Both the position numbers and the translations under genes were made by a program. From the NCBI RefSeq assembly GCF_003334305.1, contig NZ_QOWS01000009.1: DNA of 64,000 bases; one strand, written 5' to 3'. This document shows positions 15,681 through 57,573 of this stretch, in pieces (within the stretch, counting starts at the first letter, position 1; the number at the start of each line of letters is the position of its first letter). The stretch comes from Escherichia coli (GTDB lineage Bacteria > Pseudomonadota > Gammaproteobacteria > Enterobacterales > Enterobacteriaceae). Under the pieces are notes generated by a model. The model ran no database searches and was not told the origin of the DNA. It saw only the letters and a list, made by a program, of their open reading frames with translations.

Positions 15681-16316
15681 TCTTCTGAATCACCGGGCGA
15701 AAAAATATAACTGAGTTACAAATAAGTACCAGTCGAATGAGTATTGTATTAAGAATTTTTGAGTATCGCTGATACAACCAGAAAGCAATGCTAGCGCAAT
15801 ATTATAGGGCCAGCAATTGAGATTATTAGCAAAAGCATGTTAAGAATTAATTACCGAATTTATATATTAATTATAGTAAGGCAATGAGCTATTTTTGATA
15901 GTAAAAATAAAACAAGTTGATTTGATATATTAAATGAACAAATTAATCTTGATGGCAGTCTGATTATTGGTGAAGTTTATAGTCAGTTTTTTTCGCCAGC
16001 GGTTAAAGAAATAGAATAGTCGTATAAAAAAGGGTGTTCTGGGGCGAGTAAAACAACATCTTCACCTTAATGGCGATACAGTTGGCTGAGAGTCAGCAGG
16101 GGGGCAAATCACCTGCAAATAAACACGGCGCATACTGGCGTGAATATCGCGGATGCGTTCGAGGACAGAAGAACCGACAGGCGGATTCTTCAGCCGCTCA
16201 TCGTCCATCACAAAACCTTAGACCAGGTATTCCTGAAGCCGATTGAATATTGAGCAGTAGAAAATATCTGGATTGACAGTATTACAAGGGGTTGGAGAAC
16301 GTCAGGAGAGGCATTT

Positions 16317-16411
16317 TGGCGGAAGATCACAGGAGTCGAACCTGCCCGGGACCGCTGGCGGCCCCAACTGGATTTGAAGTCCAGCCGCCTCACCGGAGAC
16401 GACGATCTTCC
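16317..16411 (-). tRNA. selC: tRNA-Sec (selenocysteine tRNA, UCA anticodon)
   Basis: Reverse complement reads GGAAGATCGTCGTCTCCGGTGAGGCGGCTGGACTTCAAATCCAGTTGGGGCCGCCAGCGGTCCCGGGCAGGTTCGACTCCTGTGATCTTCCGCCA, a 95-nt match to E. coli selC with encoded CCA. Confidence 0.97.
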
Positions 16412-43016: not shown

Positions 43017-44781
<1,765 letters not shown>

Positions 44782-45094
44782 AGTAAATAGCTGACTTATG
44801 GATGTGCTGGGGATTCTATGTATTTAGCTGTGGCTTTACCATTACTTTTCCCGTTTTTGACTTAAATAGCAATTTACCCGCCAATTCTTGCTGAACATCT
44901 ATACTTTTTTTGTATTTTTATGCGATTCATTGATTTCTGCTGTACGTGCAGGAAGGAATCGCAGAGCAACAGTGAAAGAATATGGTTGCTAATGATTTTA
45001 TTTGATTGATTTCTTTATTGAAAATCAACAATGTGCTTAAAAATCATTCGGGTCGGATTGCCGCGAAAGAAGTGATACACTAGCGCGTCAATAT

Positions 45095-45144
45095 CAGTGC
45101 GGTATCAGTATTCAGGTAGCTGTTGAGCCTGGGGCGGTAGCGTG
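45095..45144 (+). promoter_or_regulatory. JUMPStart-like element containing the ops site (GGCGGTAGCGTG) in the waaQ leader
   Basis: TCAGGTAGCTGTTGAGCCTGGGGCGGTAGCGTG with ops at 45133..45144, about 50 nt upstream of the waaQ start. Confidence 0.75.
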
Positions 45145-45193
45145 CTTTTTCTGCTTCACCTTAATCGGATAATCTCAACAAAAAGAGTTACTT

Positions 45194-46252
45194 GTGGATA
45201 AGCCATTTCGAAGAATTTTGCTCATTAAGATGCGTTTTCATGGGGATATGTTATTAACTACTCCCGTCATTAGTTCGCTGAAAAAAAATTACCCTGACGC
45301 AAAAATCGATGTGCTGCTTTATCAGGACACCATCCCGATCCTGTCTGAAAATCCAGAGATTAACGCGCTCTACGGCATAAAAAATAAAAAAGCAAAAGCC
45401 TCAGAAAAAATTGCCAACTTTTTTCATCTCATCAAGGTATTACGTGCCAATAAGTATGACCTTATCGTCAATCTTACCGATCAATGGATGGTTGCTATAC
45501 TGGTTCGCTTATTAAATGCCCGTGTGAAAATTTCCCAGGATTATCATCATCGGCAGTCTGCTTTTTGGCGTAAAAGTTTCACCCATTTGGTGCCGTTGCA
45601 GGGTGGAAATGTGGTGGAAAGTAACTTATCCGTGCTGACACCATTGGGACTTGATTCGTTGGTGAAGCAGACAACCATGAGTTACCCGCCTGCAAGCTGG
45701 AAACGTATGCGTCGCGAACTTGATCACGCTGGTGTTGGACAAAATTATGTGGTTATCCAACCTACGGCGCGGCAAATCTTCAAATGCTGGGACAACGCCA
45801 AGTTTTCCGCTGTGATTGATGCCTTACATGCTCGTGGTTATGAAGTCGTTCTGACGTCCGGCCCAGATAAAGACGATCTGGCCTGCGTCAATGAAATTGC
45901 GCAGGGATGCCAGACGCCACCAGTAACGGCGCTGGCTGGAAAGGTGACCTTCCCGGAACTTGGTGCGTTAATCGATCATGCGCAGCTGTTTATTGGCGTT
46001 GATTCCGCACCGGCGCATATTGCCGCTGCAGTTAATACGCCGCTGATATCGCTGTTTGGTGCGACAGACCATATTTTCTGGCGTCCCTGGTCAAATAACA
46101 TGATTCAATTCTGGGCGGGAGATTACCGGGAAATGCCAACGCGCGATCAGCGTGACCGAAATGAGATGTATCTTTCGGTTATTCCGGCGGCAGATGTCAT
46201 TGCTGCTGTCGATAAATTACTGCCCTCCTCCACGACAGGTACGTCGTTATGA
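45194..46252 (+). CDS. waaQ: LPS heptosyltransferase III WaaQ
   Basis: 352 aa from GTG; GT9; conserved N-terminal RRILLIKMRFHGD requires a start upstream of the first ATG. Confidence 0.88.
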   Translation: MDKPFRRILLIKMRFHGDMLLTTPVISSLKKNYPDAKIDVLLYQDTIPILSENPEINALYGIKNKKAKASEKIANFFHLIKVLRANKYDLIVNLTDQWMVAILVRLLNARVKISQDYHHRQSAFWRKSFTHLVPLQGGNVVESNLSVLTPLGLDSLVKQTTMSYPPASWKRMRRELDHAGVGQNYVVIQPTARQIFKCWDNAKFSAVIDALHARGYEVVLTSGPDKDDLACVNEIAQGCQTPPVTALAGKVTFPELGALIDHAQLFIGVDSAPAHIAAAVNTPLISLFGATDHIFWRPWSNNMIQFWAGDYREMPTRDQRDRNEMYLSVIPAADVIAAVDKLLPSSTTGTSL

Positions 46253-47373
46253 TCGTTGCTTTTTGTTTATATAAATATTTTCCCTTTGGCGGTTTGCAGC
46301 GTGATTTTATGCGTATTGCTCAGACAGTCGCCGCCCGAGGTCATCATGTTCGGGTTTATACCCAGTCGTGGGAAGGCGAATGCCCTGATGTATTTGAACT
46401 GATCAAAGTGCCGGTTAAATCGCATACCAATCACGGGCGCAATGCGGAGTATTTTGCCTGGGTGCAAAAACATTTACGCGAACATCCCGTCGATAAAGTC
46501 GTTGGATTCAACAAAATGCCGGGGCTGGACGTTTATTATGCCGCTGATGTTTGTTATGCCGAGAAAGTAGCGCAGGAAAAAGGCTTTTTCTATCGCCTGA
46601 CGTCACGTTATCGCCATTATGCCGCCTTTGAGCGGGCAACCTTCGAACAGGGCAAGCCGACACAGCTGCTGATGCTGACAGATAAGCAAATCGCCGATTT
46701 CCAGAAACATTATCAGACTGAAGCGGAGCGTTTTCATATTCTGCCACCGGGGATTTATCCTGATCGTAAATATAGCCAGCAGCCAGCCAATAGCCGTGAA
46801 ATCTTCCGTAAGAAGAATGGAATAACCGAACAACAATATTTATTGTTGCAGGTCGGTTCAGACTTCACGCGTAAAGGTGTCGATCGTTCCATTGAAGCAC
46901 TTGCTTCGTTACCGGATTCGCTGCGCCACAACACATTGCTATATGTTGTTGGGCAGGATAAACCGCGAAAATTTGAGGCGCTGGCAGAAAAACGCGGTGT
47001 GCGCAGTAATGTTCACTTTTTCTCGGGGCGCAATGATGTCTCGGAATTAATGGCGGCGGCGGATTTATTACTGCATCCTGCCTACCAGGAAGCGGCGGGA
47101 ATTGTGCTGCTGGAAGCGATTACTGCAGGATTACCGGTACTAACAACTGCCGTTTGTGGCTATGCGCATTATATTGTCGACGCTAATTGCGGCGAGGCTA
47201 TTGCTGAGCCATTCCGCCAGGAAACATTGAATGAGATTTTACGCAAAGCGTTAACGCAATCTTCATTGCGCCAGGCCTGGGCGGAAAATGCGCGACATTA
47301 TGCTGATACACAAGATTTATACAGTCTGCCAGAGAAAGCGGCGGATATCATAACGGGTGGTCTGGATGGTTGA
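46249..47373 (+). CDS. waaG: LPS glucosyltransferase I WaaG (GT4)
   Basis: 374 aa; start overlaps waaQ stop by 4 nt. Confidence 0.95.
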
Positions 47374-48163
47374 ACTTAAAGAGCCGTTTGCCACGTTATG
47401 GCGCGGCAAAGATCCTTTTGAGGAAGTTAAAACCTTGCAGGGTGAGGTATTTCGTGAACTGGAAACTCGCCGTACTCTGCGCTTTGAAATGGCGGGCAAA
47501 AGCTATTTTCTCAAATGGCATCGCGGCACGACCCTGAAAGAGATAATCAAAAATTTACTCTCATTGCGGATGCCAGTATTAGGCGCTGACCGCGAATGGA
47601 ATGCGATTCATCGACTGCGGGATGTCGGCGTTGATACTATGTATGGGGTGGTATTTGGCGAAAAAGGCATGAATCCGCTGACCAGAACTTCATTTATTAT
47701 TACCGAAGATCTGACACCAACCATAAGTCTGGAAGATTACTGTGCTGACTGGGCGACTACCCCTCCAGATGTTCGCGTAAAGCGTATGCTTATTAAGCGT
47801 GTCGCGACGATGGTGCGCGATATGCATGCTGCGGGCATTAACCACCGTGACTGTTATATCTGTCATTTCCTGCTGCACTTGCCTTTTTCCGGTAAGGAAG
47901 AGGAGTTAAAAATTTCGGTAATTGACCTGCACCGGGCGCAGCTTCGCACGCGCGTTCCACGTCGTTGGCGGGATAAAGATCTTATTGGGCTTTATTTTTC
48001 TTCGATGAATATCGGCCTGACTCAGCGGGATATCTGGCGGTTTATGAAAGTGTATTTTGCCGCCCCGCTTAAAGACATTCTCAAGCAGGAACAAGGACTG
48101 CTGTCGCAAGCAGAAGCAAAAGCCACAAAAATCAGGGAAAGAACGATTCGAAAATCGTTGTAA
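47366..48163 (+). CDS. waaP: LPS core heptose I kinase WaaP
   Basis: 265 aa from ATG overlapping waaG 3' end by 8 nt ([21 protein letters not shown]...). Confidence 0.93.
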
Positions 48164-48178
48164 TTTCCGGAGAGAAAT

Positions 48179-49195
48179 ATGAGTGCCCACTATTTTAATC
48201 CACAAGAGATGATCAATAAGACAATCATCTTCGATGAAAGGCCAGCGGCGTCAGTGGCATCATCATTCCATGTTGCTTATGGCATTGATAAAAACTTTCT
48301 TTTTGGTTGTGGTGTTTCAATCACGTCAGTTTTGTTACATAACAACGACGTGAGTTTTGTTTTCCACGTTTTTATTGATGATATCCCTGAAGCCGATATC
48401 CAGCGTTTAGCCCAATTGGCGAAAAGCTATCGTACCTGTATCCAGATCCATCTAGTAAATTGTGAACGGCTTAAGGCATTACCGACGACCAAAAATTGGT
48501 CTATTGCCATGTATTTCCGTTTTGTAATTGCAGATTACTTTATTGATCAACAAGATAAGATCCTTTACCTGGATGCTGATATCGCCTGTCAGGGAAACTT
48601 AAAGCCGCTGATAACAATGGATCTTGCCAATAACGTTGCTGCTGTTGTTACTGAACGCGATGCTAACTGGTGGTCGTTACGGGGTCAAAGTCTGCAGTGT
48701 AATGAACTTGAAAAGGGTTACTTTAATTCAGGTGTCCTGTTAATTAATACACTAGCGTGGGCGCAGGAGTCCGTTTCTGCTAAAGCGATGTCGATGCTTG
48801 CTGATAAAGCCATCGTTTCCCGTTTAACCTATATGGATCAAGATATCCTTAATCTTATCCTGTTAGGGAAAGTTAAATTCATTGATGCTAAATACAATAC
48901 GCAATTTAGTTTAAATTATGAATTAAAAAAATCATTTGTTTGTCCAATTAATGATGAAACCGTATTAATTCATTATGTCGGCCCGACAAAACCCTGGCAT
49001 TACTGGGCCGGTTATCCAAGTGCGCAACCTTTTATCAAAGCCAAAGAAGCATCGCCCTGGAAAAATGAACCGTTAATGCGGCCAGTTAACTCAAACTATG
49101 CTCGTTATTGCGCCAAGCATAATTTTAAACAAAACAAACCAATTAACGGGATAATGAATTATATTTATTATTTTTATTTAAAGATAATAAAATGA
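48179..49195 (+). CDS. waaO: GT8 LPS alpha-1,3-glucosyltransferase (WaaO/WaaI type)
   Basis: 338 aa; DxD motif LYLDADIACQG and HYVGPTKPW motif; first gene after waaP; AT-rich. Confidence 0.8.
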   Translation: MSAHYFNPQEMINKTIIFDERPAASVASSFHVAYGIDKNFLFGCGVSITSVLLHNNDVSFVFHVFIDDIPEADIQRLAQLAKSYRTCIQIHLVNCERLKALPTTKNWSIAMYFRFVIADYFIDQQDKILYLDADIACQGNLKPLITMDLANNVAAVVTERDANWWSLRGQSLQCNELEKGYFNSGVLLINTLAWAQESVSAKAMSMLADKAIVSRLTYMDQDILNLILLGKVKFIDAKYNTQFSLNYELKKSFVCPINDETVLIHYVGPTKPWHYWAGYPSAQPFIKAKEASPWKNEPLMRPVNSNYARYCAKHNFKQNKPINGIMNYIYYFYLKIIK

Positions 49196-49211
49196 AATTG
49201 AGAAAAGTTAA

Positions 49212-50207
49212 ATGAATGAATTTATAAAAGAACGGTTTTCGTATTTAGCAGATAATAAAAAAGAAAACGCCCCAGAGCTAAATGTTTCCTACGGTATCGA
49301 TAAGAATTTTTTGTATGGTGCTGGCGTTTCAATTTCTTCCGTTTTGATTAATAATTCAGATATTAATTTTGTCTTTCATGTTTTCACTGATTATGTGGAT
49401 GATGATTATTTAAAGTCATTTAATGAAACAGCAAAACAATTTAATACCTCAATTATTGTATATTTAATTGACCCCAAATACTTTGCTGATCTGCCGACGT
49501 CACAGTTTTGGTCGTACGCGACATACTTCAGGGTATTGTCTTTTGAATATCTGAGTGAAAGTATTTCCACACTGCTGTATCTGGATGCCGATGTTGTTTG
49601 TAAAGGAAGCCTGAAACCTCTCACAGAAATTATATTTAAAGATGAGTTTGCTGCGGTCATTCCTGACAATGATAGTACTCAGGCGGCATGTGCAAAACGC
49701 CTCAACATTCCCGAAATGAATGGACGTTATTTCAATGCAGGCGTTATCTATGTCAATCTTAAAAAATGGCATGAAGCAAATTTGACACCGTATTTACTCA
49801 AACTTTTACGAGGGGAAACTAAATATGGCTCTCTTAAATATTTAGATCAGGATGCGTTGAATATCGCATTTAATATGAATAATATCTACCTTGCGAAGAA
49901 TTTTGATACTATTTATACCCTGAAAAACGAACTTTATGATCGTAGTCATCGAAAGTATCAGCAAACCATTACCGATAAAACAGTGTTGATTCACTATACA
50001 GGGATAACTAAACCATGGCATAGCTGGGCTGGATATCCGTCTGCATCATACTTTAATATCGCGCGTGAACAATCTCCCTGGAAGAAATATCCTCTTAAAG
50101 AGGCGCGGACTGTTGCAGAAATGCAGAAACAATATAAGCATCTGTTTGCCCATGGTGAGTATATAAAAGGCATAACTTCATTAATTAAGTACAAGCTTAA
50201 GAAATAA
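49212..50207 (+). CDS. waaT: GT8 LPS alpha-1,2-glycosyltransferase (WaaT-like, R1 outer core)
   Basis: 331 aa; LYLDADVVCKG and HYTGITKPW; name assigned from R1 gene order, not from a search. Confidence 0.65.
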   Translation: MNEFIKERFSYLADNKKENAPELNVSYGIDKNFLYGAGVSISSVLINNSDINFVFHVFTDYVDDDYLKSFNETAKQFNTSIIVYLIDPKYFADLPTSQFWSYATYFRVLSFEYLSESISTLLYLDADVVCKGSLKPLTEIIFKDEFAAVIPDNDSTQAACAKRLNIPEMNGRYFNAGVIYVNLKKWHEANLTPYLLKLLRGETKYGSLKYLDQDALNIAFNMNNIYLAKNFDTIYTLKNELYDRSHRKYQQTITDKTVLIHYTGITKPWHSWAGYPSASYFNIAREQSPWKKYPLKEARTVAEMQKQYKHLFAHGEYIKGITSLIKYKLKK

Positions 50208-50216
50208 ATTACTCTT

Positions 50217-50909
50217 ATGATTACAAGTATACGTTATCGCGGCTTCTCATTTTATTACAAAGATAATGATAATAAATATAAAGAAATCTTTGATGAAATA
50301 CTGGCCTATAATTTTAAAACAGTAAAAGTATTACGTAATATTGATGATACCAAAGTATCATTGATTGATACGAAATATGGTCGCTATGTTTTTAAAGTCT
50401 TTGCCCCGAAAACGAAAAGGAATGAACGTTTTTTAAAATCTTTTGTAAAAGGTGACTACTATCAGAATTTGATCGTTGAAACCGATCGTGTCAGAAGTGC
50501 AGGTCTTACTTTTCCTAATGATTTTTATTTTCTGGCTGAGCGTAAAATTTTCAACTATGCCAGTGTTTTTATTATGCTTATCGAGTATGTCGAGGGCGTA
50601 GAGCTCAATGATATGCCGATTATTCCAGAAAATGTTAAAGCAGAAATTAAGGCTTCAATGGAAAAATTGCATGCCTTAAATATGCTATCGGGCGACCCAC
50701 ACCGGGGTAATTTTATCGTTAGTAAAGATGGTGTCAGGATAATTGACCTATCCGGTAAAAGCTGTACGGCAGAGCGTAAAGCTCGTGATCGTCTGGCCAT
50801 GGAACGTCACCTGGGTATTGCCAACGAAATAAAAGATTATGGCTACTATTCAGTAATCTACAGAACCAAACTACGCAAATTTATTAAAAAATTAAAAGGC
50901 AAAGCGTAA
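50217..50909 (+). CDS. waaY: LPS core heptose II kinase WaaY
   Basis: 230-aa small kinase-like protein between GT8 genes; matches WaaY family. Confidence 0.82.
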   Translation: MITSIRYRGFSFYYKDNDNKYKEIFDEILAYNFKTVKVLRNIDDTKVSLIDTKYGRYVFKVFAPKTKRNERFLKSFVKGDYYQNLIVETDRVRSAGLTFPNDFYFLAERKIFNYASVFIMLIEYVEGVELNDMPIIPENVKAEIKASMEKLHALNMLSGDPHRGNFIVSKDGVRIIDLSGKSCTAERKARDRLAMERHLGIANEIKDYGYYSVIYRTKLRKFIKKLKGKA

Positions 50910-50934
50910 ACCACACAGTCAAAACGGAACCAAC

Positions 50935-51960
50935 ATGGATTTATTAGCTGAGAGTATTACTGAAGTCGCTGTCTCTGGGGAAATTGCTAACACCGATCGT
51001 GTGTTAAATATCGCTTACGGTATTGACCGTAACTTTTTATTTGGTGCGGCAGTATCTATGCAATCAGTTGTTATGCATAACCCGGACCTTGCGGTTAAGT
51101 TTCATCTCTTTACCGACTACATTGATGAAGATTATCTACAACGTGTTAATGCTTTTACCAGCAAAAATGCTAACGTTGAAGTAATAATTTATAAAGTCTC
51201 CAATGCCTTTATTGATATCTTCCCCAGCCTGAAACAGTGGTCTTATGCAACATTCTTCCGTTTAGTTGCGTTCCAGTATTTGAGTGAAACTATTGAAAAT
51301 CTGTTATATATCGATGCTGATGTCATCTGTAAAGGCTCATTAGCTGGATTGCTTGATATTAATTTTGATGAGGATAAGTTCGCAGCTGTTATTAAAGATG
51401 TGCCTTTTATGCAGGAAAAACCAGCGAAGCGTCTGGCTATAGAGGGACTTCCAGGGAATTATTTCAACGCCGGTGTAGTATATCTGCAGCTTGAAGCATG
51501 GGCGAAAAATGATTTTATGAATAAAGCCATTGCTATGCTGGCAAGTGACCCGCAGCACACGAAGTATAAATGCCTTGATCAGGATATTTTAAATATTCTG
51601 TTCTTTGGTCATTGTATTTTTATTAGCGGCGATTATGATTGCTTTTATGGCATTGACTATGAGTTAAAAAATAAAAGCGATGAAGATTATAAAAAGACCA
51701 TTACCGATGATACTAAGCTGATTCATTATGTTGGCGTAACGAAGCCCTGGAACGACTGGACGAATTATCCCTGCCAGAAGTATTTTAATGAGGCTTATCA
51801 GGCTTCTTGCTGGAATGATGTGGCGTTTATTCCAGCCACGAATGAAAAGCAGTATCAAGTGAAATATCAACATGCAAAGAAAAATGGTGATACGTTTAAC
51901 GCTTTTATTTACTTCATTAAATTTAAATTAAATAAGTATAAAAGAAAACTATTTGGATAA
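50935..51960 (+). CDS. waaW: GT8 LPS alpha-1,2-glycosyltransferase (WaaW-like, R1 outer core)
   Basis: 341 aa; LYIDADVICKG and HYVGVTKPW; position after waaY. Confidence 0.65.
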   Translation: MDLLAESITEVAVSGEIANTDRVLNIAYGIDRNFLFGAAVSMQSVVMHNPDLAVKFHLFTDYIDEDYLQRVNAFTSKNANVEVIIYKVSNAFIDIFPSLKQWSYATFFRLVAFQYLSETIENLLYIDADVICKGSLAGLLDINFDEDKFAAVIKDVPFMQEKPAKRLAIEGLPGNYFNAGVVYLQLEAWAKNDFMNKAIAMLASDPQHTKYKCLDQDILNILFFGHCIFISGDYDCFYGIDYELKNKSDEDYKKTITDDTKLIHYVGVTKPWNDWTNYPCQKYFNEAYQASCWNDVAFIPATNEKQYQVKYQHAKKNGDTFNAFIYFIKFKLNKYKRKLFG

Positions 51961-52044
51961 TAATAAAAATCATGGATGTCTGAGTTACAATAATAATTAA
52001 GGATGAGTACTATCATATTTTATTAGTTCAGGCAAGAGAACACG

Positions 52045-53028
52045 ATGAGCAATGATTACCCTTTAGTATCCATAATAATACCGACGTATAATTCATCTGA
52101 TTACATTACTGAAACTCTAACGAAATTAGAAAAACAAACTTACCCAAATTTTGAAATTGTTATTGTTAATGATGGTTCTAAAGATAACACATCAAACGTT
52201 TTGAGAGAGTATGGGTTAACCCACTCTCGATTAATTATTATCAATAAAGAAAATGGCGGTGTTTCGTCTGCCAGGAATACAGGTATCCGCAAGGCGCAAG
52301 GACAGTTTATATGTTTTATGGATGATGATGATGAGATAGATCCTAACTATCTGCTGAAGATGTATACCAGACAACATGAGACGGGAGGGGATGCGATTTA
52401 TTGTGGGCTTTATGGCCATTATATAAAAGATGGTGTTACTTACTCACCTATAAATACAGAGTTTAATGAAGGATCTTTACTTTTCGACTTTTTTTATAAA
52501 AAGGTTAGATTCCATATAGGGTGCTTGTTTATAAGAAAACAACTTCTGGAAGAGAATAATCTTTTTTTTGATGAAGATTTACGACTAGGAGAAGATCTTG
52601 ATTTTATCTATCGACTGCTAATTACATGCGATATGTATGCGGTTCCATATTATATGTATAAGCATAACTATAGAGAAAATTCCTTAATGAACTCATGTAG
52701 AACCATCACTCATTATCGACATGAGTCATTTGCGCACGAAAGAATCTACTCTTCTGTGATGCAGTTATACAAAGGTAACCGGAAAGAAGAAATTCATACA
52801 TTATTGAGTCAAAATAGAGCTTATCATAAAACTCGTTATTTATGGAATGTTCTACTTAATGGTGATTTTAAACTATTGAATCAATTAGTTGAAAACAATG
52901 ATAAAGAATTAAGAGATTGTAATCTTCCTGGCAAGAGAGATAAGAGACGAGCAAAAATATTAGCATCAAAAAATTATATTCTCTGGAGGATGGTAAGACT
53001 GGTAAATAGAAAAAAGAATAAACGTTAG
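52045..53028 (+). CDS. waaV: GT2 beta-glycosyltransferase (WaaV-like, R1 outer core)
   Basis: 327 aa; N-terminal GT2 signature VSIIIPTYNSSDYITETL..EIVIVNDGSKD; GT2 rather than GT25 argues R1 rather than R4. Confidence 0.65.
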   Translation: MSNDYPLVSIIIPTYNSSDYITETLTKLEKQTYPNFEIVIVNDGSKDNTSNVLREYGLTHSRLIIINKENGGVSSARNTGIRKAQGQFICFMDDDDEIDPNYLLKMYTRQHETGGDAIYCGLYGHYIKDGVTYSPINTEFNEGSLLFDFFYKKVRFHIGCLFIRKQLLEENNLFFDEDLRLGEDLDFIYRLLITCDMYAVPYYMYKHNYRENSLMNSCRTITHYRHESFAHERIYSSVMQLYKGNRKEEIHTLLSQNRAYHKTRYLWNVLLNGDFKLLNQLVENNDKELRDCNLPGKRDKRRAKILASKNYILWRMVRLVNRKKNKR

Positions 53029-53073
53029 ATCTTGCATTAAATAACCCATCCTCGTAGCATAGGTTGAAACTAT

Positions 53074-54327
53074 ATGTCGTTTTGTTGGAATGAAATTAAT
53101 TCTGGTATAAAGTCTTTAATTCTCATATTATGTATTTTTTCTTTAATGACTTTGTCTTTATGGGATGATGTTGCAACAAAGTTTCTTCATGCAGCTGGAA
53201 TTATATCTGCATTGTATTTTCTTGCGACACCAAAAAAAACAATAACTAATAATCCTACTTTGTTAATTTTCATCTCATTATGTCTTTTGGGTATCGTAAA
53301 TATCATCTGGTATTCACATTATAAAGTTTCAGGCTCTGTTTATACCAATGCATATCGTGGCCCAATGGAAACTGGAAAAATTGCCTTGTGTAGCGCTTTT
53401 ATTTTCTTAGTTCTTTTTGCTAAAAATGAGATGAGAACAAAAATAAAATTTGGGAAACTAATTCTGTTCGCATCCCTGGCAACGCAGTTACTTTTTTTTG
53501 CGCATGCCATGTGGCAACATTTCTATTTAAACGTCGACCGTGTTGCATTATCAGCTTCCCACGCTACAACAGCAGGCTACATCATCCTTTTTCCTTCTTT
53601 ACTGGCATCAATTCTCATTTTAAAATCCGACTTTAGACATAAAACAACATTATATACAATTAACTTCATGCTTAGCTTATGTGCTGTCATAGTAACTGAG
53701 ACGCGTGCAGCCATATTAGTGTTTCCATTCTTTGCGTTAATATTAATCGTAATGGATAGTTATATTAATAAGCGAATTAATTATAAGTTATATTGTTTTA
53801 TTACGATTGCATTATTAGCAGGTGTATTTTCTTTTAAAGATACATTGCTTATGAGAATGAATGACTTAAATAACGATTTAGTTAATTATTCGCATGATAA
53901 CACCAGAACTTCAGTCGGTGCCCGTCTGGCAATGTATGAAGTTGGCTTAAAAACATATTCTCCAATAGGACAATCACTGGAAAAACGTGCGGAAAAAATA
54001 CATGAACTAGAAGAAAAAGAGCCTAGATTGAGTGGCGCTTTACCCTATGTAGATTCTCATTTGCATAACGATCTCATAGATACGTTATCAACGCGTGGTA
54101 TTCCTGGAGTTGTATTAACAATTTTAGCATTTTCAGCAATACTCATATATGCCTTAAGAACTGCTAAAGAACCTTATATTTTAATCTTGCTTTTTTCACT
54201 ACTGGTAGTAGGACTAAGTGATGTAATACTCTTTTCTAAACCGGTTCCGACTGCTGTGTTTATCACCATAATATTGCTTTGTGCTTATTTTAAAGCACAA
54301 TCGGACCAATGTTTATTAGAGAAGTAA
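53074..54327 (+). CDS. waaL: O-antigen ligase WaaL
   Basis: 417-aa polytopic protein; Wzy_C-type motifs TETRAAILVFP and GARLAMYEVGL shared with K-12 WaaL; last gene of the plus-strand operon. Confidence 0.85.
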   Translation: MSFCWNEINSGIKSLILILCIFSLMTLSLWDDVATKFLHAAGIISALYFLATPKKTITNNPTLLIFISLCLLGIVNIIWYSHYKVSGSVYTNAYRGPMETGKIALCSAFIFLVLFAKNEMRTKIKFGKLILFASLATQLLFFAHAMWQHFYLNVDRVALSASHATTAGYIILFPSLLASILILKSDFRHKTTLYTINFMLSLCAVIVTETRAAILVFPFFALILIVMDSYINKRINYKLYCFITIALLAGVFSFKDTLLMRMNDLNNDLVNYSHDNTRTSVGARLAMYEVGLKTYSPIGQSLEKRAEKIHELEEKEPRLSGALPYVDSHLHNDLIDTLSTRGIPGVVLTILAFSAILIYALRTAKEPYILILLFSLLVVGLSDVILFSKPVPTAVFITIILLCAYFKAQSDQCLLEK

Positions 54328-54341
54328 TGAATATGTGAAAT

Positions 54342-54370
54342 AAAATCAGCAAGGAAGCTGATTTTATTTC
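54342..54370. terminator. Bidirectional hairpin between convergent waaL and waaC
   Basis: AAAATCAGC-aaggaa-GCTGATTTT followed by a T-rich run. Confidence 0.6.
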
Positions 54371-54396
54371 AAAATTATCTATTAAAGAGTTGTAAT

Positions 54397-55368
54397 TTAA
54401 ATCATGGCAGCGTTTTCTTCAATGAACCGCTTAACAGCATTTGCTGTCAATTGAGACAACTCATTCCCCGGAGCCCTACAAACCATCTGATTCTTCCCAT
54501 ACCCACCAATTAATCCCGGATCGGTTGGTCCATAAACCGTGATATTGGGTCTATCCAGTGCCGCCGTTAAATGGCTTAACCCCGTATCCACCGACACTAC
54601 AAATTTAGCCCCGGCCAGCACGCGGGCAACGCCTTCCAGACTCATCTTCGGCAATACTTCAACATAAGCAAATCCTTCCGCCAGTCGTTTCGCCCGTTCT
54701 TCCTCATGCGGCGCGCCCCACGGAAGTTTAATCCGTATTCCTGAATCAGCCAGTAAACCAATCAATTCTCGCCAGTGTTCTTCCGGCCAGTGTTTATCAT
54801 CACGGGTCGTCGCATGAAGAAATACGGCATATTCGCCAGCATCTGTAGGCAGGTTCGTCAGAAAATGCTGTGCGATAGCATAATCGCCCTGGGTTTGCGG
54901 TTTGCTATAGCCCAAACTTTTGGCAAACAGTTCGCGGGTGCGTTCTACGGCGTGCTGCTGTTTTGCAATATGATGCTTACGATTGTAAAACAGGCTGGCT
55001 AAAGGTTCGCGAGCGGTTTGCCAGTCCATGCCATGCTTTACGCCATGCGCCAGACGCGTCACCAGCGCCGCGCTTTTTACCAGCCCCTGAGCGTCGATAA
55101 CTGCGTCATAGTTCTCTGCTTGTAGCGCTTCACGAAACGCTTTGCGTTCAGCTTTTATAGGGGCCGAGAACCAGGCTTTACGCCAGCGACGTATTGCCAC
55201 AGGAATAACTCGCTCAACGGCAGCGTGCCAGGAAGGAATCTGTGCGAACCCTTCTTCCACCACCCAGTCAAACTTAATTTCTGGGATTGCCTGCTGGGCA
55301 TCAGTGAGTGCGGGCAACGTATGGAGAACATCGCCCATCGACGATGTTTTAACGATCAAAACCCGCAT
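54397..55368 (-). CDS. waaC: LPS heptosyltransferase I WaaC
   Basis: 323 aa, GT9, MRVLIVKTSSMGDVLHTLPALTDA... Confidence 0.95.
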   Translation of the reverse strand: MRVLIVKTSSMGDVLHTLPALTDAQQAIPEIKFDWVVEEGFAQIPSWHAAVERVIPVAIRRWRKAWFSAPIKAERKAFREALQAENYDAVIDAQGLVKSAALVTRLAHGVKHGMDWQTAREPLASLFYNRKHHIAKQQHAVERTRELFAKSLGYSKPQTQGDYAIAQHFLTNLPTDAGEYAVFLHATTRDDKHWPEEHWRELIGLLADSGIRIKLPWGAPHEEERAKRLAEGFAYVEVLPKMSLEGVARVLAGAKFVVSVDTGLSHLTAALDRPNITVYGPTDPGLIGGYGKNQMVCRAPGNELSQLTANAVKRFIEENAAMI

Positions 55369-55371
55369 CCG

Positions 55372-56418
55372 TCAGGCTTCCTCTTGTAACAATAGCGCGT
55401 TGAGTTCTTCCAGTACGCGCTGGGGAGTAATGTCGATCAAGCTCTGGTGATAACCCTCCGCAGCGTCACCTTTACGCACTTTGTGATAGCCGGTAATCAG
55501 GCGGATCACGCGCGCTTTATGGGATAGCGGCGGTGTGAAGTCCGGGCTACTCGGACCATACAGGGCAACCAGCGGACGATTGAGCGCCGCCGCAACGTGC
55601 ATCAGGCCAGAATCGTTAGTGACAATGGCTTTACAGGCTGCAATCAGGATAACCGCTTGATCAAGCTGTGTTTCCCCCGCCAGGTTCCGACACCATGCCT
55701 GCTGCTCGGTATTCAAAGCGGCAAGAATCTCATTGCCTGCTTCATGATCTTTCGCCGAGCCAAACAGAACCACCTGATAACCTTCATCAATCAGCTGCTT
55801 TGCCAGCTCCGCATAGTGGTAGTGTGGCCAGCGTTTTGCCGGACCAAACTCCGCACCCGGGCAAAAACCAATCATCGGACGTTCTGATGAAAGCGAAAAT
55901 TGATTACAGGTATATGATTTTTCACCTTCGCTCACCTGCAACTGCGGCCATAACAATGGCTGCGGCAGATCTTGTGCTGTGCGCATAATGCCTTTGTCAT
56001 AGGCCAGCGCGACATAGCGTTCCACCATTAGCGGCCAGGCTTCTTTATCGAGCACGCGTACATCGTTGAGTAAACCGTAGCGCATCTCGCCGCGCCAGCC
56101 GGTGCGATGAGGAATACCCGCGAAGAAAGGCACTAATGCGGATTTGAAGGAGTTGGGTAAGACGTAGGCGCGGTCGTAGCGCTTTTCACGCAGGCTATGA
56201 CCCAGTTTGCGGCGTTCGCCGATTTCCAGCGCTCCGTGACCGAGAGGCATAGGGATAGCTTCGTTAACTTCCGGCATCCGCGATAATAATGGACGGCACC
56301 ATGCCGGTGCCATCACATCGATTATCGCCTGGGGATAGCGCGCCTGGAGCGTGCGATAGAGACTTTGCGACATCATCATGTCGCCAACCCAAGACGGGCC
56401 GATCACCAGTATTTTCAT
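55372..56418 (-). CDS. waaF: LPS heptosyltransferase II WaaF
   Basis: 348 aa, GT9, MKILVIGPSWVGDMMMSQSLYRTL... Confidence 0.95.
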   Translation of the reverse strand: MKILVIGPSWVGDMMMSQSLYRTLQARYPQAIIDVMAPAWCRPLLSRMPEVNEAIPMPLGHGALEIGERRKLGHSLREKRYDRAYVLPNSFKSALVPFFAGIPHRTGWRGEMRYGLLNDVRVLDKEAWPLMVERYVALAYDKGIMRTAQDLPQPLLWPQLQVSEGEKSYTCNQFSLSSERPMIGFCPGAEFGPAKRWPHYHYAELAKQLIDEGYQVVLFGSAKDHEAGNEILAALNTEQQAWCRNLAGETQLDQAVILIAACKAIVTNDSGLMHVAAALNRPLVALYGPSSPDFTPPLSHKARVIRLITGYHKVRKGDAAEGYHQSLIDITPQRVLEELNALLLQEEA

Positions 56419-56427
56419 GCAGAGCTC

Positions 56428-57360
56428 TTATGCGTCGCGATTCAGCCAGGCCATGTATTCCGTTACACCTTCAGCAACGGTTTTGAACGGTTTGTCGTAA
56501 CCCGCCGCGCGCAGATTTGTCAGATCTGCCTGAGTGAACGCCTGGTAGCGGCCTTTCAGCTTATCCGGGAACGGAATGTATTCGATCTGGCCTTTCTTGT
56601 GATAAGCCAGCGTAGCATCTGCTACTGCCTGGAAGGATTCTGCACGACCGGTGCCGAGGTTGAAGATACCGGAAACGCCATTTTCCAGGAACCACAGGTT
56701 TACATCTGCCACGTCGCCCACATAGACGAAGTCGCGTTTGAAGTTCTCGCTACCTTCAAACAGCTTCGGTGATTCACCGTTGTTAAGCTGAGTGTTGAGA
56801 TGGAACGCGACGCTCGCCATGCTGCCTTTATGGCCTTCACGCGGTCCATAAACGTTGAAATAACGGAAGCCAACAATCTGCGAGTTCGCTTCAGGCAGGA
56901 TTTGGCGAACATATTCATCAAACAGGAATTTTGAGTAACCGTAGACGTTCAACGGTTTTTCGTACTCGCGGGATTCAATAAAGTCGGAGGTGCGTCCGCC
57001 GTAGGTGGCTGCGGAAGAAGCGTACAGGAACGGGATTTCGCGCTCCAGGCAGTAGTGCAGCAGCTCCTTGGAGTATTGATAGTTGTTATCCATCATATAC
57101 TTGCCGTCCCACTCGGTGGTGGAAGAGCATGCGCCTTCGTGGAAAATCGCTTCGACATCGCCGAACTCTTCGCCAGCCATAATCTGGATCAGGAAGTCTT
57201 CCTTATCCATATAGTCCGCGATATCCAGATCCACCAGGTTCACAAACTTGGTGCCGTCTTTCAGGTTGTCCACCACCAGAATATCGGTGATGCCTTTATC
57301 ATTCAGGGCCTTAACGATGTTGCTGCCGATAAAGCCCGCGCCGCCGGTAACGATGATCAT
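56428..57360 (-). CDS. hldD: ADP-L-glycero-D-manno-heptose 6-epimerase
   Basis: 310 aa, Rossmann [11 protein letters not shown]. Confidence 0.97.
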
Positions 57361-57573
57361 AACTGTAACCTTCGAATTATGGAGTCAGAGACAATCTCAG
57401 ACACGAATACTTCTATCATATCACTACACGGCGTTGGCTTCAGCCATTCGCCAAAAGTGAGATTGATGGACGTTATTTATCCTGAATTTTGCAGAAGTGT
57501 TAACGCGTCATCTCGTCGCGACCTATAAGTTTGGGTAATATGTGCTGGAATTTGCCCTGTCTGGAGAATCGCA

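What the first reader, a model, noticed from the sequence alone, without database searches (positions are those of the whole stretch)
48179..54327. R1-type LPS outer-core cassette (waaO-T-Y-W-V-L) with waaL on the waaQ-operon strand
After the conserved waaQ-G-P, the locus carries GT8, GT8, WaaY, GT8, GT2 and WaaL, all on the plus strand. That pattern fits the R1 core type (waaQGPOTYWVL) rather than K-12 (waaQGPSBOJYZU with waaL in the hldD-waaFC operon). The about 6 kb from waaO to waaL is visibly AT-rich relative to its flanks, consistent with a horizontally exchanged cassette recombined between conserved waaP and waaC. Gene names here are assigned from family signatures and order only.
Basis: partly seen in the sequence, partly recalled or inferred. 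Interest (0 to 1): 0.4.

Follow-up and report, generated by a model that had tools for sequence, protein, structure and literature searches.

The report
Ordinary E. coli R1 LPS core locus
This stretch is the well-known R1-type gene set that builds the outer core sugars of E. coli lipopolysaccharide and attaches the O-antigen. It is intact, it is the commonest of the five known E. coli core types, and nothing about it is new.

Summary
Window 48179-54327 carries six tightly packed plus-strand genes: GT8, GT8, WaaY kinase, GT8, GT2 and a Wzy_C ligase. They follow waaQ-G-P and converge on waaC-waaF-hldD.

- **Composition:** GC is 35.0%, against 49.7% and 52.5% in the flanks. This is the lowest 6-kb stretch in the window.
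- **Core type:** In-silico PCR with published typing primers gives the exact 842-bp R1 amplicon. No R2, R3, R4 or K-12 primer site is present. An R4 genome with near-identical flanks has a GT25 gene and a 35%-identical ligase where this window has waaV-waaL.
- **Frequency:** The whole cassette is present at 97.8% identity or more in 1826 of 5426 complete E. coli genomes. The window is 100% identical to strain A7.

The interpretation needs three refinements.

- waaQGP is not conserved against K-12 (WaaQ is 73% identical).
- The right junction lies inside the 3' end of waaC.
- AT-richness is shared by all core-type alleles, and the cassette has diverged in step with its flanks. It therefore marks an old polymorphism reshuffled by homologous recombination, not a recent import.

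The finding is already known and of low interest.

The parts
43504..44781 (-). waaA (Kdo transferase), transcribed divergently from waaQ. It marks the left limit of sequence conserved against K-12.
   Evidence: Annotated in the 100%-identical strain A7. Identity to K-12 is 96-100% up to about 44720, then drops.
45106..45144 (+). JUMPstart element containing the ops motif GGCGGTAG, in the waaQ leader. It is the expected RfaH loading site for antitermination through the long operon.
   Evidence: Rfam RF01707 at 55.2 bits against a gathering score of 35. The sequence gggGGCGGTAGcgtg was read. RfaH dependence is inferred from established knowledge.
45194..46252 (+). waaQ (heptosyltransferase III)
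   Evidence: NCBIfam RfaQ equivalog, 714 bits. 100% aa identity to R3 and R4 strains, 73% to K-12.
46249..47373 (+). waaG (GT4 glucosyltransferase I; adds the first outer-core glucose)
   Evidence: Annotated waaG in A7. 90% aa identity to K-12 WaaG.
47366..48163 (+). waaP (heptose I kinase)
   Evidence: NCBIfam RfaP equivalog, 479 bits. The start used here is the PGAP start; the mechanical ORF begins at 47357.
48179..49195 (+). waaO (GT8; alpha-1,3 transfer of the second glucose)
   Evidence: NF011718 at 612 bits against a cut-off of 461. Its DAD motif aligns with the DXD motif of LgtC, PDB 1G9R. 100% identical to the WaaO of the R4 strain. The sugar specificity is taken from the literature.
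49212..50207 (+). waaT (GT8; alpha-1,2 galactosyltransferase). Intact, and a rare allele.
   Evidence: Pfam GT8 plus GT8C. 99.7% identical to R4 WaaT. Two substitutions, C172R and D230N, against the commonest allele. In the E. coli B derivative BAP1 this gene is split by IS1.
50217..50909 (+). waaY (heptose II kinase)
   Evidence: NCBIfam RfaY equivalog, 401 bits.
50935..51960 (+). waaW (GT8; alpha-1,2 galactosyltransferase acting on galactose). Its 3' end holds the R1/R4 junction at 51892.
   Evidence: Pfam GT8 plus GT8C. [quoted passage not shown] Identity to R4 ends at 51892.
52045..53028 (+). waaV (GT2; R1-specific beta-1,3 glucosyltransferase that makes the O-antigen attachment residue)
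   Evidence: Pfam Glycos_transf_2 at 1.7e-39. No homologue in the R3, R4 or K-12 loci. The R1-F typing primer matches exactly at 52627-52645. At 327 aa it has the same length as the WaaV studied in strain TK001.
53074..54327 (+). waaL (R1-type O-antigen ligase), last gene of the waaQ transcription unit
   Evidence: Pfam Wzy_C at 1.1e-18. Matches the solved WaaL 7TPG at E 1.9e-12. 35% identical to R4 WaaL, 31% to K-12 WaaL, and no hit to R3 WaaL.
54336..54371 (.). Perfect 15-bp palindrome between the convergent stop codons of waaL and waaC. It is a likely bidirectional transcription stop.
   Evidence: Found. It folds at -18.9 and -19.4 kcal/mol, with z-scores of -5.3 and -6.9. The function is inferred; there is no canonical U-tract.
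54397..55368 (-). waaC (heptosyltransferase I). Its C-terminal tail is specific to the core type, so the right recombination junction lies inside this gene.
   Evidence: All types are identical up to '...CRAP' and then diverge. R1 and R3 share nine further residues. Homology to R4 and K-12 resumes at 54469/54470, and to R3 at 54440.
55372..57360 (-). waaF and hldD (rfaD), the conserved hldD-waaF-waaC operon. It carries no waaL here.
   Evidence: 99.4-100% aa identity to all the other core types.

Best explanation
This is an intact chromosomal R1-type waa (rfa) locus of Escherichia coli.

How transcription is expected to run: it starts upstream of waaQ and is carried through the roughly 9-kb AT-rich operon by RfaH, recruited at the JUMPstart/ops element. 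The transcript covers waaQ-G-P-O-T-Y-W-V-L and ends near the palindrome that faces waaC.

Enzyme roles, taken from published R1 enzymology and not tested here:
- WaaG adds glucose I to heptose II.
- WaaO adds glucose II.
- WaaT adds galactose I.
- WaaW adds galactose II.
- WaaV adds the beta-linked glucose side branch.
- WaaP and WaaY phosphorylate heptoses I and II, and WaaQ adds heptose III.
- The R1-specific ligase WaaL joins the undecaprenyl-linked O-antigen to the WaaV-added glucose.

The locus is one of five allelic forms kept in the species. The forms are reshuffled by homologous recombination in the conserved flanks and in shared internal genes. The minimal R1-versus-R4 module is waaV-waaL, together with the 3' tails of waaW and waaC.
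For: Shown here:
- Gene order, strands and family signatures match R1.
- The R1-F and R1R4-R primers of Trofimova et al. 2025 (PMC13293308) match exactly and span 51804-52645, which is the published 842 bp. None of the R2, R3, R4 or K-12 primers matches within 3 mismatches.
- The cassette is present in full at 97.8-100% identity in 1826 of 5426 complete E. coli genomes, or 33.7%. That agrees with the published R1 frequency of 35.4%.
- The whole window is 100% identical to strain A7.
- An R4 genome has flanks 99.3-99.7% identical and waaOTYW 99.5% identical, but carries a GT25 gene and a 35%-identical ligase in place of waaV-waaL.
- BAP1, a BL21 derivative, carries the same cassette at 98.3-99.3% identity with IS1 inserted in waaT. 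From my own knowledge, E. coli B has a truncated R1 core.
- JUMPstart lies upstream of waaQ. A palindrome follows waaL.
- All six ORFs are full length relative to their protein clusters, and the DXD motifs are present.

From the literature: enzyme roles and order of action, and loss of O-antigen in waaV mutants.
Against: - No direct comparison with the F470 reference sequences was possible. The primary papers (Heinrichs 1998, Amor 2000) are not held, and the reference record is not in the searchable collections.
- No expression or LPS chemistry was measured. Co-transcription of waaL with waaQ and termination at the palindrome are inferred.
- The WaaT allele carries two uncommon substitutions whose effect is unknown.
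Confidence: 0.95

Rival explanations
1. The locus is R4 type, or an R1/R4 hybrid of the kind described for ECOR46. It would then make a core with a beta-galactose in place of, or as well as, the beta-glucose attachment site.
For: waaO-T-Y-W are shared at 99.5% identity with an R4 genome, and the gene order is the same. Hybrids carrying both waaV and waaX exist.
Against: - There is no GT25 gene in the locus.
- The R4-F primer is absent from the whole 64-kb window, even allowing 3 mismatches.
- The ligase is only 34.7% identical to R4 WaaL.
- The identical strain A7 has a single copy of the cassette (places_in_record = 1).
Confidence: 0.01
2. The cassette is a recently acquired genomic island from a low-GC donor, imported as one 6-kb unit between waaP and waaC.
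For: GC drops sharply from about 50% to 35%, and GC3 to 0.26-0.37. The content between conserved flanks differs among strains.
Against: - There are no integrase, transposase, tRNA or flanking direct repeats; only short chance repeats were found.
- Every alternative allele is equally AT-rich: R4 34.6%, R3 33.1%, K-12 33.3%. Two loci from other taxa show the same low GC.
- In a distant R1 strain the cassette and its flanks have diverged equally, 1.5-2.8% against 1.8-2.7%.
- The junctions are nested and lie inside genes (waaW, waaO, waaC), as expected for homologous recombination between alleles.
Confidence: 0.03
3. The locus is R1 by sequence but functionally defective, giving a rough or truncated core as in E. 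coli B.
For: - R1 loci are known to be inactivated, for example by IS1 in waaT in BAP1.
- Phage selection readily yields waaV, waaW and waaT frameshifts.
- The WaaT allele here is rare, seen on 12 contigs, and has the substitutions C172R and D230N.
Against: - All nine genes of the operon are intact and of full length.
- The DXD motifs are retained.
- The two WaaT changes fall at positions that vary among the GT8 paralogues and LgtC, as read.
Confidence: 0.04

Closest known systems
E. coli R1 core-type waa locus (prototype strain F470; also E. coli C, NCTC122 and many ExPEC)
   Same: - Gene order waaQ-G-P-O-T-Y-W-V-L, convergent on hldD-waaF-waaC.
- A GT2 WaaV and an R1-specific WaaL.
- An exact 842-bp R1 typing amplicon.
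- At least 97.8% nucleotide identity to the locus in 1826 complete genomes.
   Different: Nothing of substance. This allele is 100% identical to strain A7 and has two uncommon WaaT substitutions. Direct alignment to F470 itself was not possible with these tools.
E. coli R4 core-type waa locus
   Same: The architecture is identical, including waaL as the last gene of the waaQ operon. waaQGPOTY and most of waaW are 99.5% identical.
   Different: R4 has a GT25 WaaX where R1 has the GT2 WaaV. Its WaaL is only 34.7% identical. The last ~23 codons of waaW and the last ~20 codons of waaC differ.
E. coli K-12 and R3 core-type loci
   Same: The flanking genes are the same (waaA; hldD-waaF-waaC). Both have JUMPstart-led waaQ operons and low-GC outer-core genes at 33%.
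   Different: - waaL lies in the hldD operon on the opposite strand.
- The outer-core gene sets differ: K-12 has waaS-B-O-J-Y-Z-U, and R3 has waaI-Y-J-D.
- The homologous GT8 and WaaY proteins are only 37-55% identical.
- K-12 waaQGP is itself divergent, at 73-90% aa.
E. coli B (BL21 lineage) R1 locus disrupted by IS1
   Same: The same cassette at 98.3-99.3% identity.
   Different: In the B lineage waaT is split by IS1A. In this window waaT is intact.

Membership tests
E. coli R1 core-type waa locus | Gene order waaQ-G-P-O-T-Y-W-V-L on one strand, with waaL last and convergent on waaC | tested here: met
   ORF map and family assignments. Identical annotation in strain A7.
E. coli R1 core-type waa locus | R1-specific waaV (a GT2 beta-glucosyltransferase) between waaW and waaL, in place of the GT25 waaX | tested here: met
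   Pfam PF00535 at 1.7e-39. The R4 genome has a GT25 protein at this position. WaaV has no homologue in the R3, R4 or K-12 loci.
E. coli R1 core-type waa locus | Published R1 typing amplicon (R1-F in waaV with R1R4-R in waaW, 842 bp) and no amplicon for the other types | tested here: met
   Exact matches at 51804-51823 (+) and 52627-52645 (-) give an 842-bp product. The other seven primers are absent at up to 3 mismatches.
E. coli R1 core-type waa locus | R1-type WaaL, distinct from the ligases of the other core types | tested here: met
   34.7% identical to R4 WaaL, 31.1% to K-12 WaaL, and no hit to R3 WaaL. The waaV-waaL segment is 98.3% identical at nucleotide level to that of the BL21-derived BAP1 locus.
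E. coli R1 core-type waa locus | Sequence identity to the F470 prototype proteins (WaaO, WaaT, WaaW, WaaV, WaaL) | not tested
   The F470 record and the primary papers are not in the available collections. The assignment rests on typing primers validated on known R1 strains, and on the BL21 lineage.
E. coli R1 core-type waa locus | R1 outer-core chemical structure (Glc-Glc-Gal-Gal backbone with a beta-Glc branch) | not testable with these tools
   This requires LPS mass spectrometry or NMR.
E. coli R4 core-type waa locus | GT25 waaX and an R4 WaaL; 380-bp R4 amplicon | tested here: not met
   No GT25 ORF is present and the R4-F primer is absent. WaaL is 34.7% identical to R4 WaaL.
E. coli K-12 / R2 / R3 core types | waaL in the hldD-waaF-waaC operon; type-specific genes (waaS/B/Z/U, waaK, waaD) | tested here: not met
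   waaL is on the opposite strand to waaC. There are no primer sites and no homologues of those genes in the locus.
Mobile genomic island (recent horizontal acquisition) | Mobility genes, tRNA or attachment-site repeats at the borders, and composition atypical relative to the alternative alleles | tested here: not met
   No integrase, IS or tRNA is present. Only short chance repeats were found. Low GC is shared by all allelic forms. Cassette and flanks have diverged together.
RfaH-dependent long operon | JUMPstart/ops element in the 5' leader | tested here: met
   RF01707 at 45106-45144, 55.2 bits. The ops motif GGCGGTAG was read. Actual RfaH dependence was not tested.

The most novel reading that the evidence does not exclude
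The most novel reading not excluded is that the core-type-specific C-terminal tails of WaaC and WaaW are not mere recombination scars. Those tails lie inside the 2.6-kb waaV-waaL exchange module. On this reading they are co-adapted parts of it, for example membrane-proximal tails that organise the type-specific enzymes. A related possibility is that the rare WaaT C172R/D230N allele alters acceptor or donor specificity. Either would make this a functional sub-variant of R1.
Probability: 0.04. Interest if true: 0.3.

Novelty: already known. Interest (0 to 1): 0.07.

Why it matters
Core type determines which phages, colicins and anti-core antibodies recognise a strain, and where the O-antigen is attached. 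Knowing that this strain is R1 is therefore useful for typing. R1 is the commonest E. coli core type, and its genetics, enzymology and distribution have been described since 1998 and re-surveyed in 2025. The finding adds no new biology.

The only small additions made here are:
- precise junction coordinates of the nested R1/R4/R3/K-12 mosaic;
- the demonstration that AT-richness is a shared, old property of all the alleles;
- a collinear R1-like locus, about 82% identical, in an unnamed metagenomic organism.

Tried and rejected
- **Primary papers:** I tried to read Amor et al. 2000 (PMC97256) and Heinrichs et al. 1998 (JBC). Neither is held. I used the typing primers and summaries from PMC13293308, PMC3526765, PMC12548472 and a bioRxiv preprint instead.
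- **NCBIfam on WaaL:** this gave no family. Pfam and PDB searches were needed to place it.
- **PADLOC:** a scan of WaaT, WaaW, WaaV and WaaL found no defence-system families.
- **Repeat search across 47500-55000:** this found only short chance repeats and no island borders.
- **Promoter and terminator scans:** counts were no higher than in shuffled sequence. Only the palindrome at 54336-54371 stands out.
- **Identifying the organism behind the R1-like locus L007:** an exact protein look-up found those proteins only in three unnamed Logan assemblies. I ran no further search on this side question.
- **Rejected readings:** R4, an R1/R4 hybrid, a recent island and a pseudogenised locus. See the rival explanations.


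Full report
**1. Observation**

The ORF list shows six back-to-back plus-strand ORFs at exactly the stated coordinates:

| Gene | Coordinates | Length (aa) |
|---|---|---|
| waaO | 48179-49195 | 338 |
| waaT | 49212-50207 | 331 |
| waaY | 50217-50909 | 230 |
| waaW | 50935-51960 | 341 |
| waaV | 52045-53028 | 327 |
| waaL | 53074-54327 | 417 |

They are preceded on the same strand by waaQ (45194-46252), waaG (46249-47373) and waaP (47366-48163). They are followed on the opposite strand by waaC (54397-55368), waaF (55372-56418) and hldD (56428-57360).

- WaaO exceeds the NCBIfam equivalog cut-off (612 bits against 461).
- WaaY exceeds the RfaY cut-off (401 against 248), and WaaQ and WaaP exceed theirs.
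- ORF2 and ORF4 are GT8 plus the GT8 C-terminal domain, at E about 1e-72.
- ORF5 is GT2, at E 1.7e-39.
- ORF6 carries Wzy_C, at E 1.1e-18. It matches the solved O-antigen ligase 7TPG at E 1.9e-12.
- The DXD motifs of the three GT8 enzymes (LDAD/IDAD) and of the GT2 enzyme (DDDD) are visible in the translations. The WaaO motif aligns with that of LgtC.

The compositional claim is also correct. The cassette has 35.0% GC with GC3 of 0.26-0.37. The left flank has 49.7% GC and the right flank 52.5%. It is the lowest-GC 6-kb stretch of the whole 64-kb window.

**2. Identity of the window**

The entire 64 kb is 100% identical and collinear with the chromosome of E. coli strain A7, NZ_CP028767.1 4693791-4757790, reverse strand. 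It runs from ilvB to gpmM. The locus is therefore a normal chromosomal E. coli waa locus.

**3. Core type**

Trofimova et al. 2025 (PMC13293308) published nine typing oligonucleotides that typed 99% of 4,549 genomes. In the window, R1-F matches exactly at 52627-52645 on the minus strand, inside waaV. R1R4-R matches exactly at 51804-51823 on the plus strand, inside waaW. The product is 842 bp, which is the published R1 size. None of the R2, R3, R4 or K-12 primers matches anywhere in the window, even with three mismatches.

A megablast of the cassette against 5,426 complete E. coli genomes finds it in full at 97.8-100% identity in 1,826 genomes, or 33.7%. That agrees with the published R1 frequency of 35.4%. 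A further set of genomes matches only the first 60%, waaO through most of waaW.

One of those partial matches is strain Res13-Lact-EA06-22. It has a GT25 protein and a different ligase after waaW, which is the R4 arrangement. Protein comparisons are clear:
- WaaV has no homologue in the R4, R3 or K-12 loci.
- WaaL is 34.7% identical to R4 WaaL and 31.1% to K-12 WaaL, with no detectable similarity to R3 WaaL.
- WaaO, WaaT and WaaY are 99.6-100% identical to R4, but only 38-55% identical to their R3 and K-12 counterparts.

BAP1, a BL21 derivative, carries the same cassette at 98.3-99.3% identity with IS1A inserted in waaT. This fits what I know of the truncated R1 core of E. coli B.

**4. Mechanism**

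The enzyme roles come from the literature and were not tested here.
- WaaG and WaaO add the first and second glucose.
- WaaV then adds the beta-glucose to glucose II, and needs prior WaaW action (citing Heinrichs 1998 and Leipold 2007).
- WaaV and WaaX are the determinants that separate R1 from R4.
- In an R1 strain, waaV frameshifts abolish O-antigen capping. This is consistent with ligation to the WaaV-added glucose.

Features in the sequence support one transcription unit from waaQ to waaL. A JUMPstart element with the ops motif GGCGGTAG lies at 45106-45144 in the waaQ leader. The intergenic gaps are 9-84 nt. A perfect 15-bp palindrome lies at 54336-54371, between the convergent stops of waaL and waaC. 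It folds at about -19 kcal/mol, with z-scores of -5.3 and -6.9. RfaH dependence, co-transcription and termination at the palindrome are inferences.

**5. Evolutionary interpretation**

The 'cassette between conserved waaP and waaC' picture is a simplification. The differing stretch depends on which core type is compared:

| Compared with | Stretch that differs |
|---|---|
| R4 | 51893-54468 |
| R3 (O157:H7) | 48229-54439 |
| K-12 | about 44800-54469 |

Against K-12, waaQGP reaches only 63-85% nucleotide identity, and WaaQ, WaaG and WaaP are 73%, 90% and 84% identical as proteins.

The right junction is inside waaC. All types share the protein up to '...CRAP' and then have type-specific tails of 19-29 residues. 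R1 and R3 share nine further residues.

Low GC is not specific to R1 and is not evidence of recent import. The R4, R3 and K-12 outer-core regions have 34.6%, 33.1% and 33.3% GC. Two loci from other taxa show the same contrast with their flanks.

In a distant R1 strain (APEC O2:K1:H4) the cassette differs from this one by 1.5-2.8%, and the flanks differ by 1.8-2.7%. Cassette and flanks have therefore co-diverged.

The R4 strain differs by 0.3-0.7% everywhere except the replaced 2.6-kb waaV-waaL module. That is direct evidence for allelic replacement by homologous recombination at that finer scale.

There are no mobility genes, tRNA genes or border repeats. R1 occurs in all the major phylogroups. 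The best description is an old, maintained polymorphism that is reshuffled by recombination.

**6. Comparison with the known, and verdict**

Every testable defining feature of the R1 waa locus is met. The defining features of R4, R3, K-12 and R2 are not met. Direct alignment to the F470 prototype and LPS chemistry could not be done. The finding is correct, and it is already known: R1 is the commonest E. coli core type, and its genetics have been described since 1998. Interest is low.

**7. Side observations**

- A WaaV search found a graded series of full-length relatives at 73-36% identity.
- The 73% relative lies in a fully collinear waaQ-G-P-O-T-Y-W-V-L locus, about 82% identical at nucleotide level, on metagenomic contigs from three Logan runs.
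- A 39% relative sits downstream of waaC, in the hldD-waaF-waaC operon of a 4.35-Mb JGI contig with a K-12/Salmonella-like layout.
- htrL/yibB is absent between hldD and kbl in this window, but present in K-12 and O157.
- selC, at 16321-16411, has a rhuM pseudogene remnant beside it in the identical A7 annotation.
- The NCBIfam equivalog names WaaO a '3-alpha-galactosyltransferase', although R1 WaaO is described as a glucosyltransferase.

Noticed in passing
L007:1-9238 (Logan SRR22936684 contig); also L008 and L009: A fully collinear waaQ-G-P-O-T-Y-W-V-L locus converging on waaC, about 82% nucleotide-identical to window 45349-54555. Protein identities are WaaV 73%, WaaL 80%, WaaO 85% and WaaG 95%. 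The proteins are known only from three Logan runs and are unnamed. This looks like an R1-like core locus in an uncharacterised relative of E. coli.
   Followed up: partly
window 54397-54470 (3' end of waaC, minus strand): The WaaC C-terminal tail after '...CRAP' differs between core types, with 19-29 type-specific residues. R1 and R3 share nine extra residues (GNELSQLTA). The right recombination junction of the core-type polymorphism therefore lies inside waaC.
   Followed up: yes
window 44800-48163 (waaA-waaQ intergenic region and waaQGP): Against K-12 this 'conserved' region is only 63-85% nucleotide-identical (WaaQ 73% aa). Against R3 and R4 strains it is 99.4-99.6% identical. Two deep lineages of the inner-core modification genes coexist in E. 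coli.
   Followed up: yes
window 49212-50207 (waaT): The WaaT allele differs from the commonest allele by C172R and D230N. This exact sequence is recorded on only 12 contigs, against more than 1000 for the common allele.
   Followed up: partly
window 57361-57573 (hldD-kbl intergenic region): htrL/yibB lies between hldD and kbl in K-12 and O157:H7. It is absent here, and also absent in the A7, R4 and APEC strains examined.
   Followed up: no
window 16321-16411 (minus strand) and about 16077-16238: The selC tRNA-Sec gene is a classic island integration site. In the identical A7 annotation only a short rhuM pseudogene remnant sits beside it. Mild low GC occurs at about 15750.
   Followed up: no
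window 54336-54371: A perfect 15-bp AT-rich palindrome lies between the convergent waaL and waaC stop codons. It folds at about -19 kcal/mol on either strand, with z-scores of -5.3 and -6.9. It is probably a bidirectional terminator and lies within the R1-specific segment.
   Followed up: partly
window 48179-49195 (waaO): The NCBIfam/PGAP equivalog name is 'lipopolysaccharide 3-alpha-galactosyltransferase'. The R1 literature describes WaaO as adding glucose. The automated product name is likely carried over from the Salmonella/R3 WaaI enzyme.
   Followed up: no
L010:8001-8987 (JGI 3300056842, 4.35-Mb contig): A 39%-identical WaaV relative is named 'UDP-glucose:(glucosyl)LPS beta-1,3-glucosyltransferase' by its source. 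It sits immediately downstream of waaC in the hldD-waaF-waaC operon of another enterobacterial genome. That genome's waaL is on the opposite strand, so the same enzyme family is placed differently in other core loci.
   Followed up: no
summary (E. coli genomes): Three of the 2540 matching places for the R1 cassette are on plasmids rather than chromosomes. Some genomes have up to three places.
   Followed up: no
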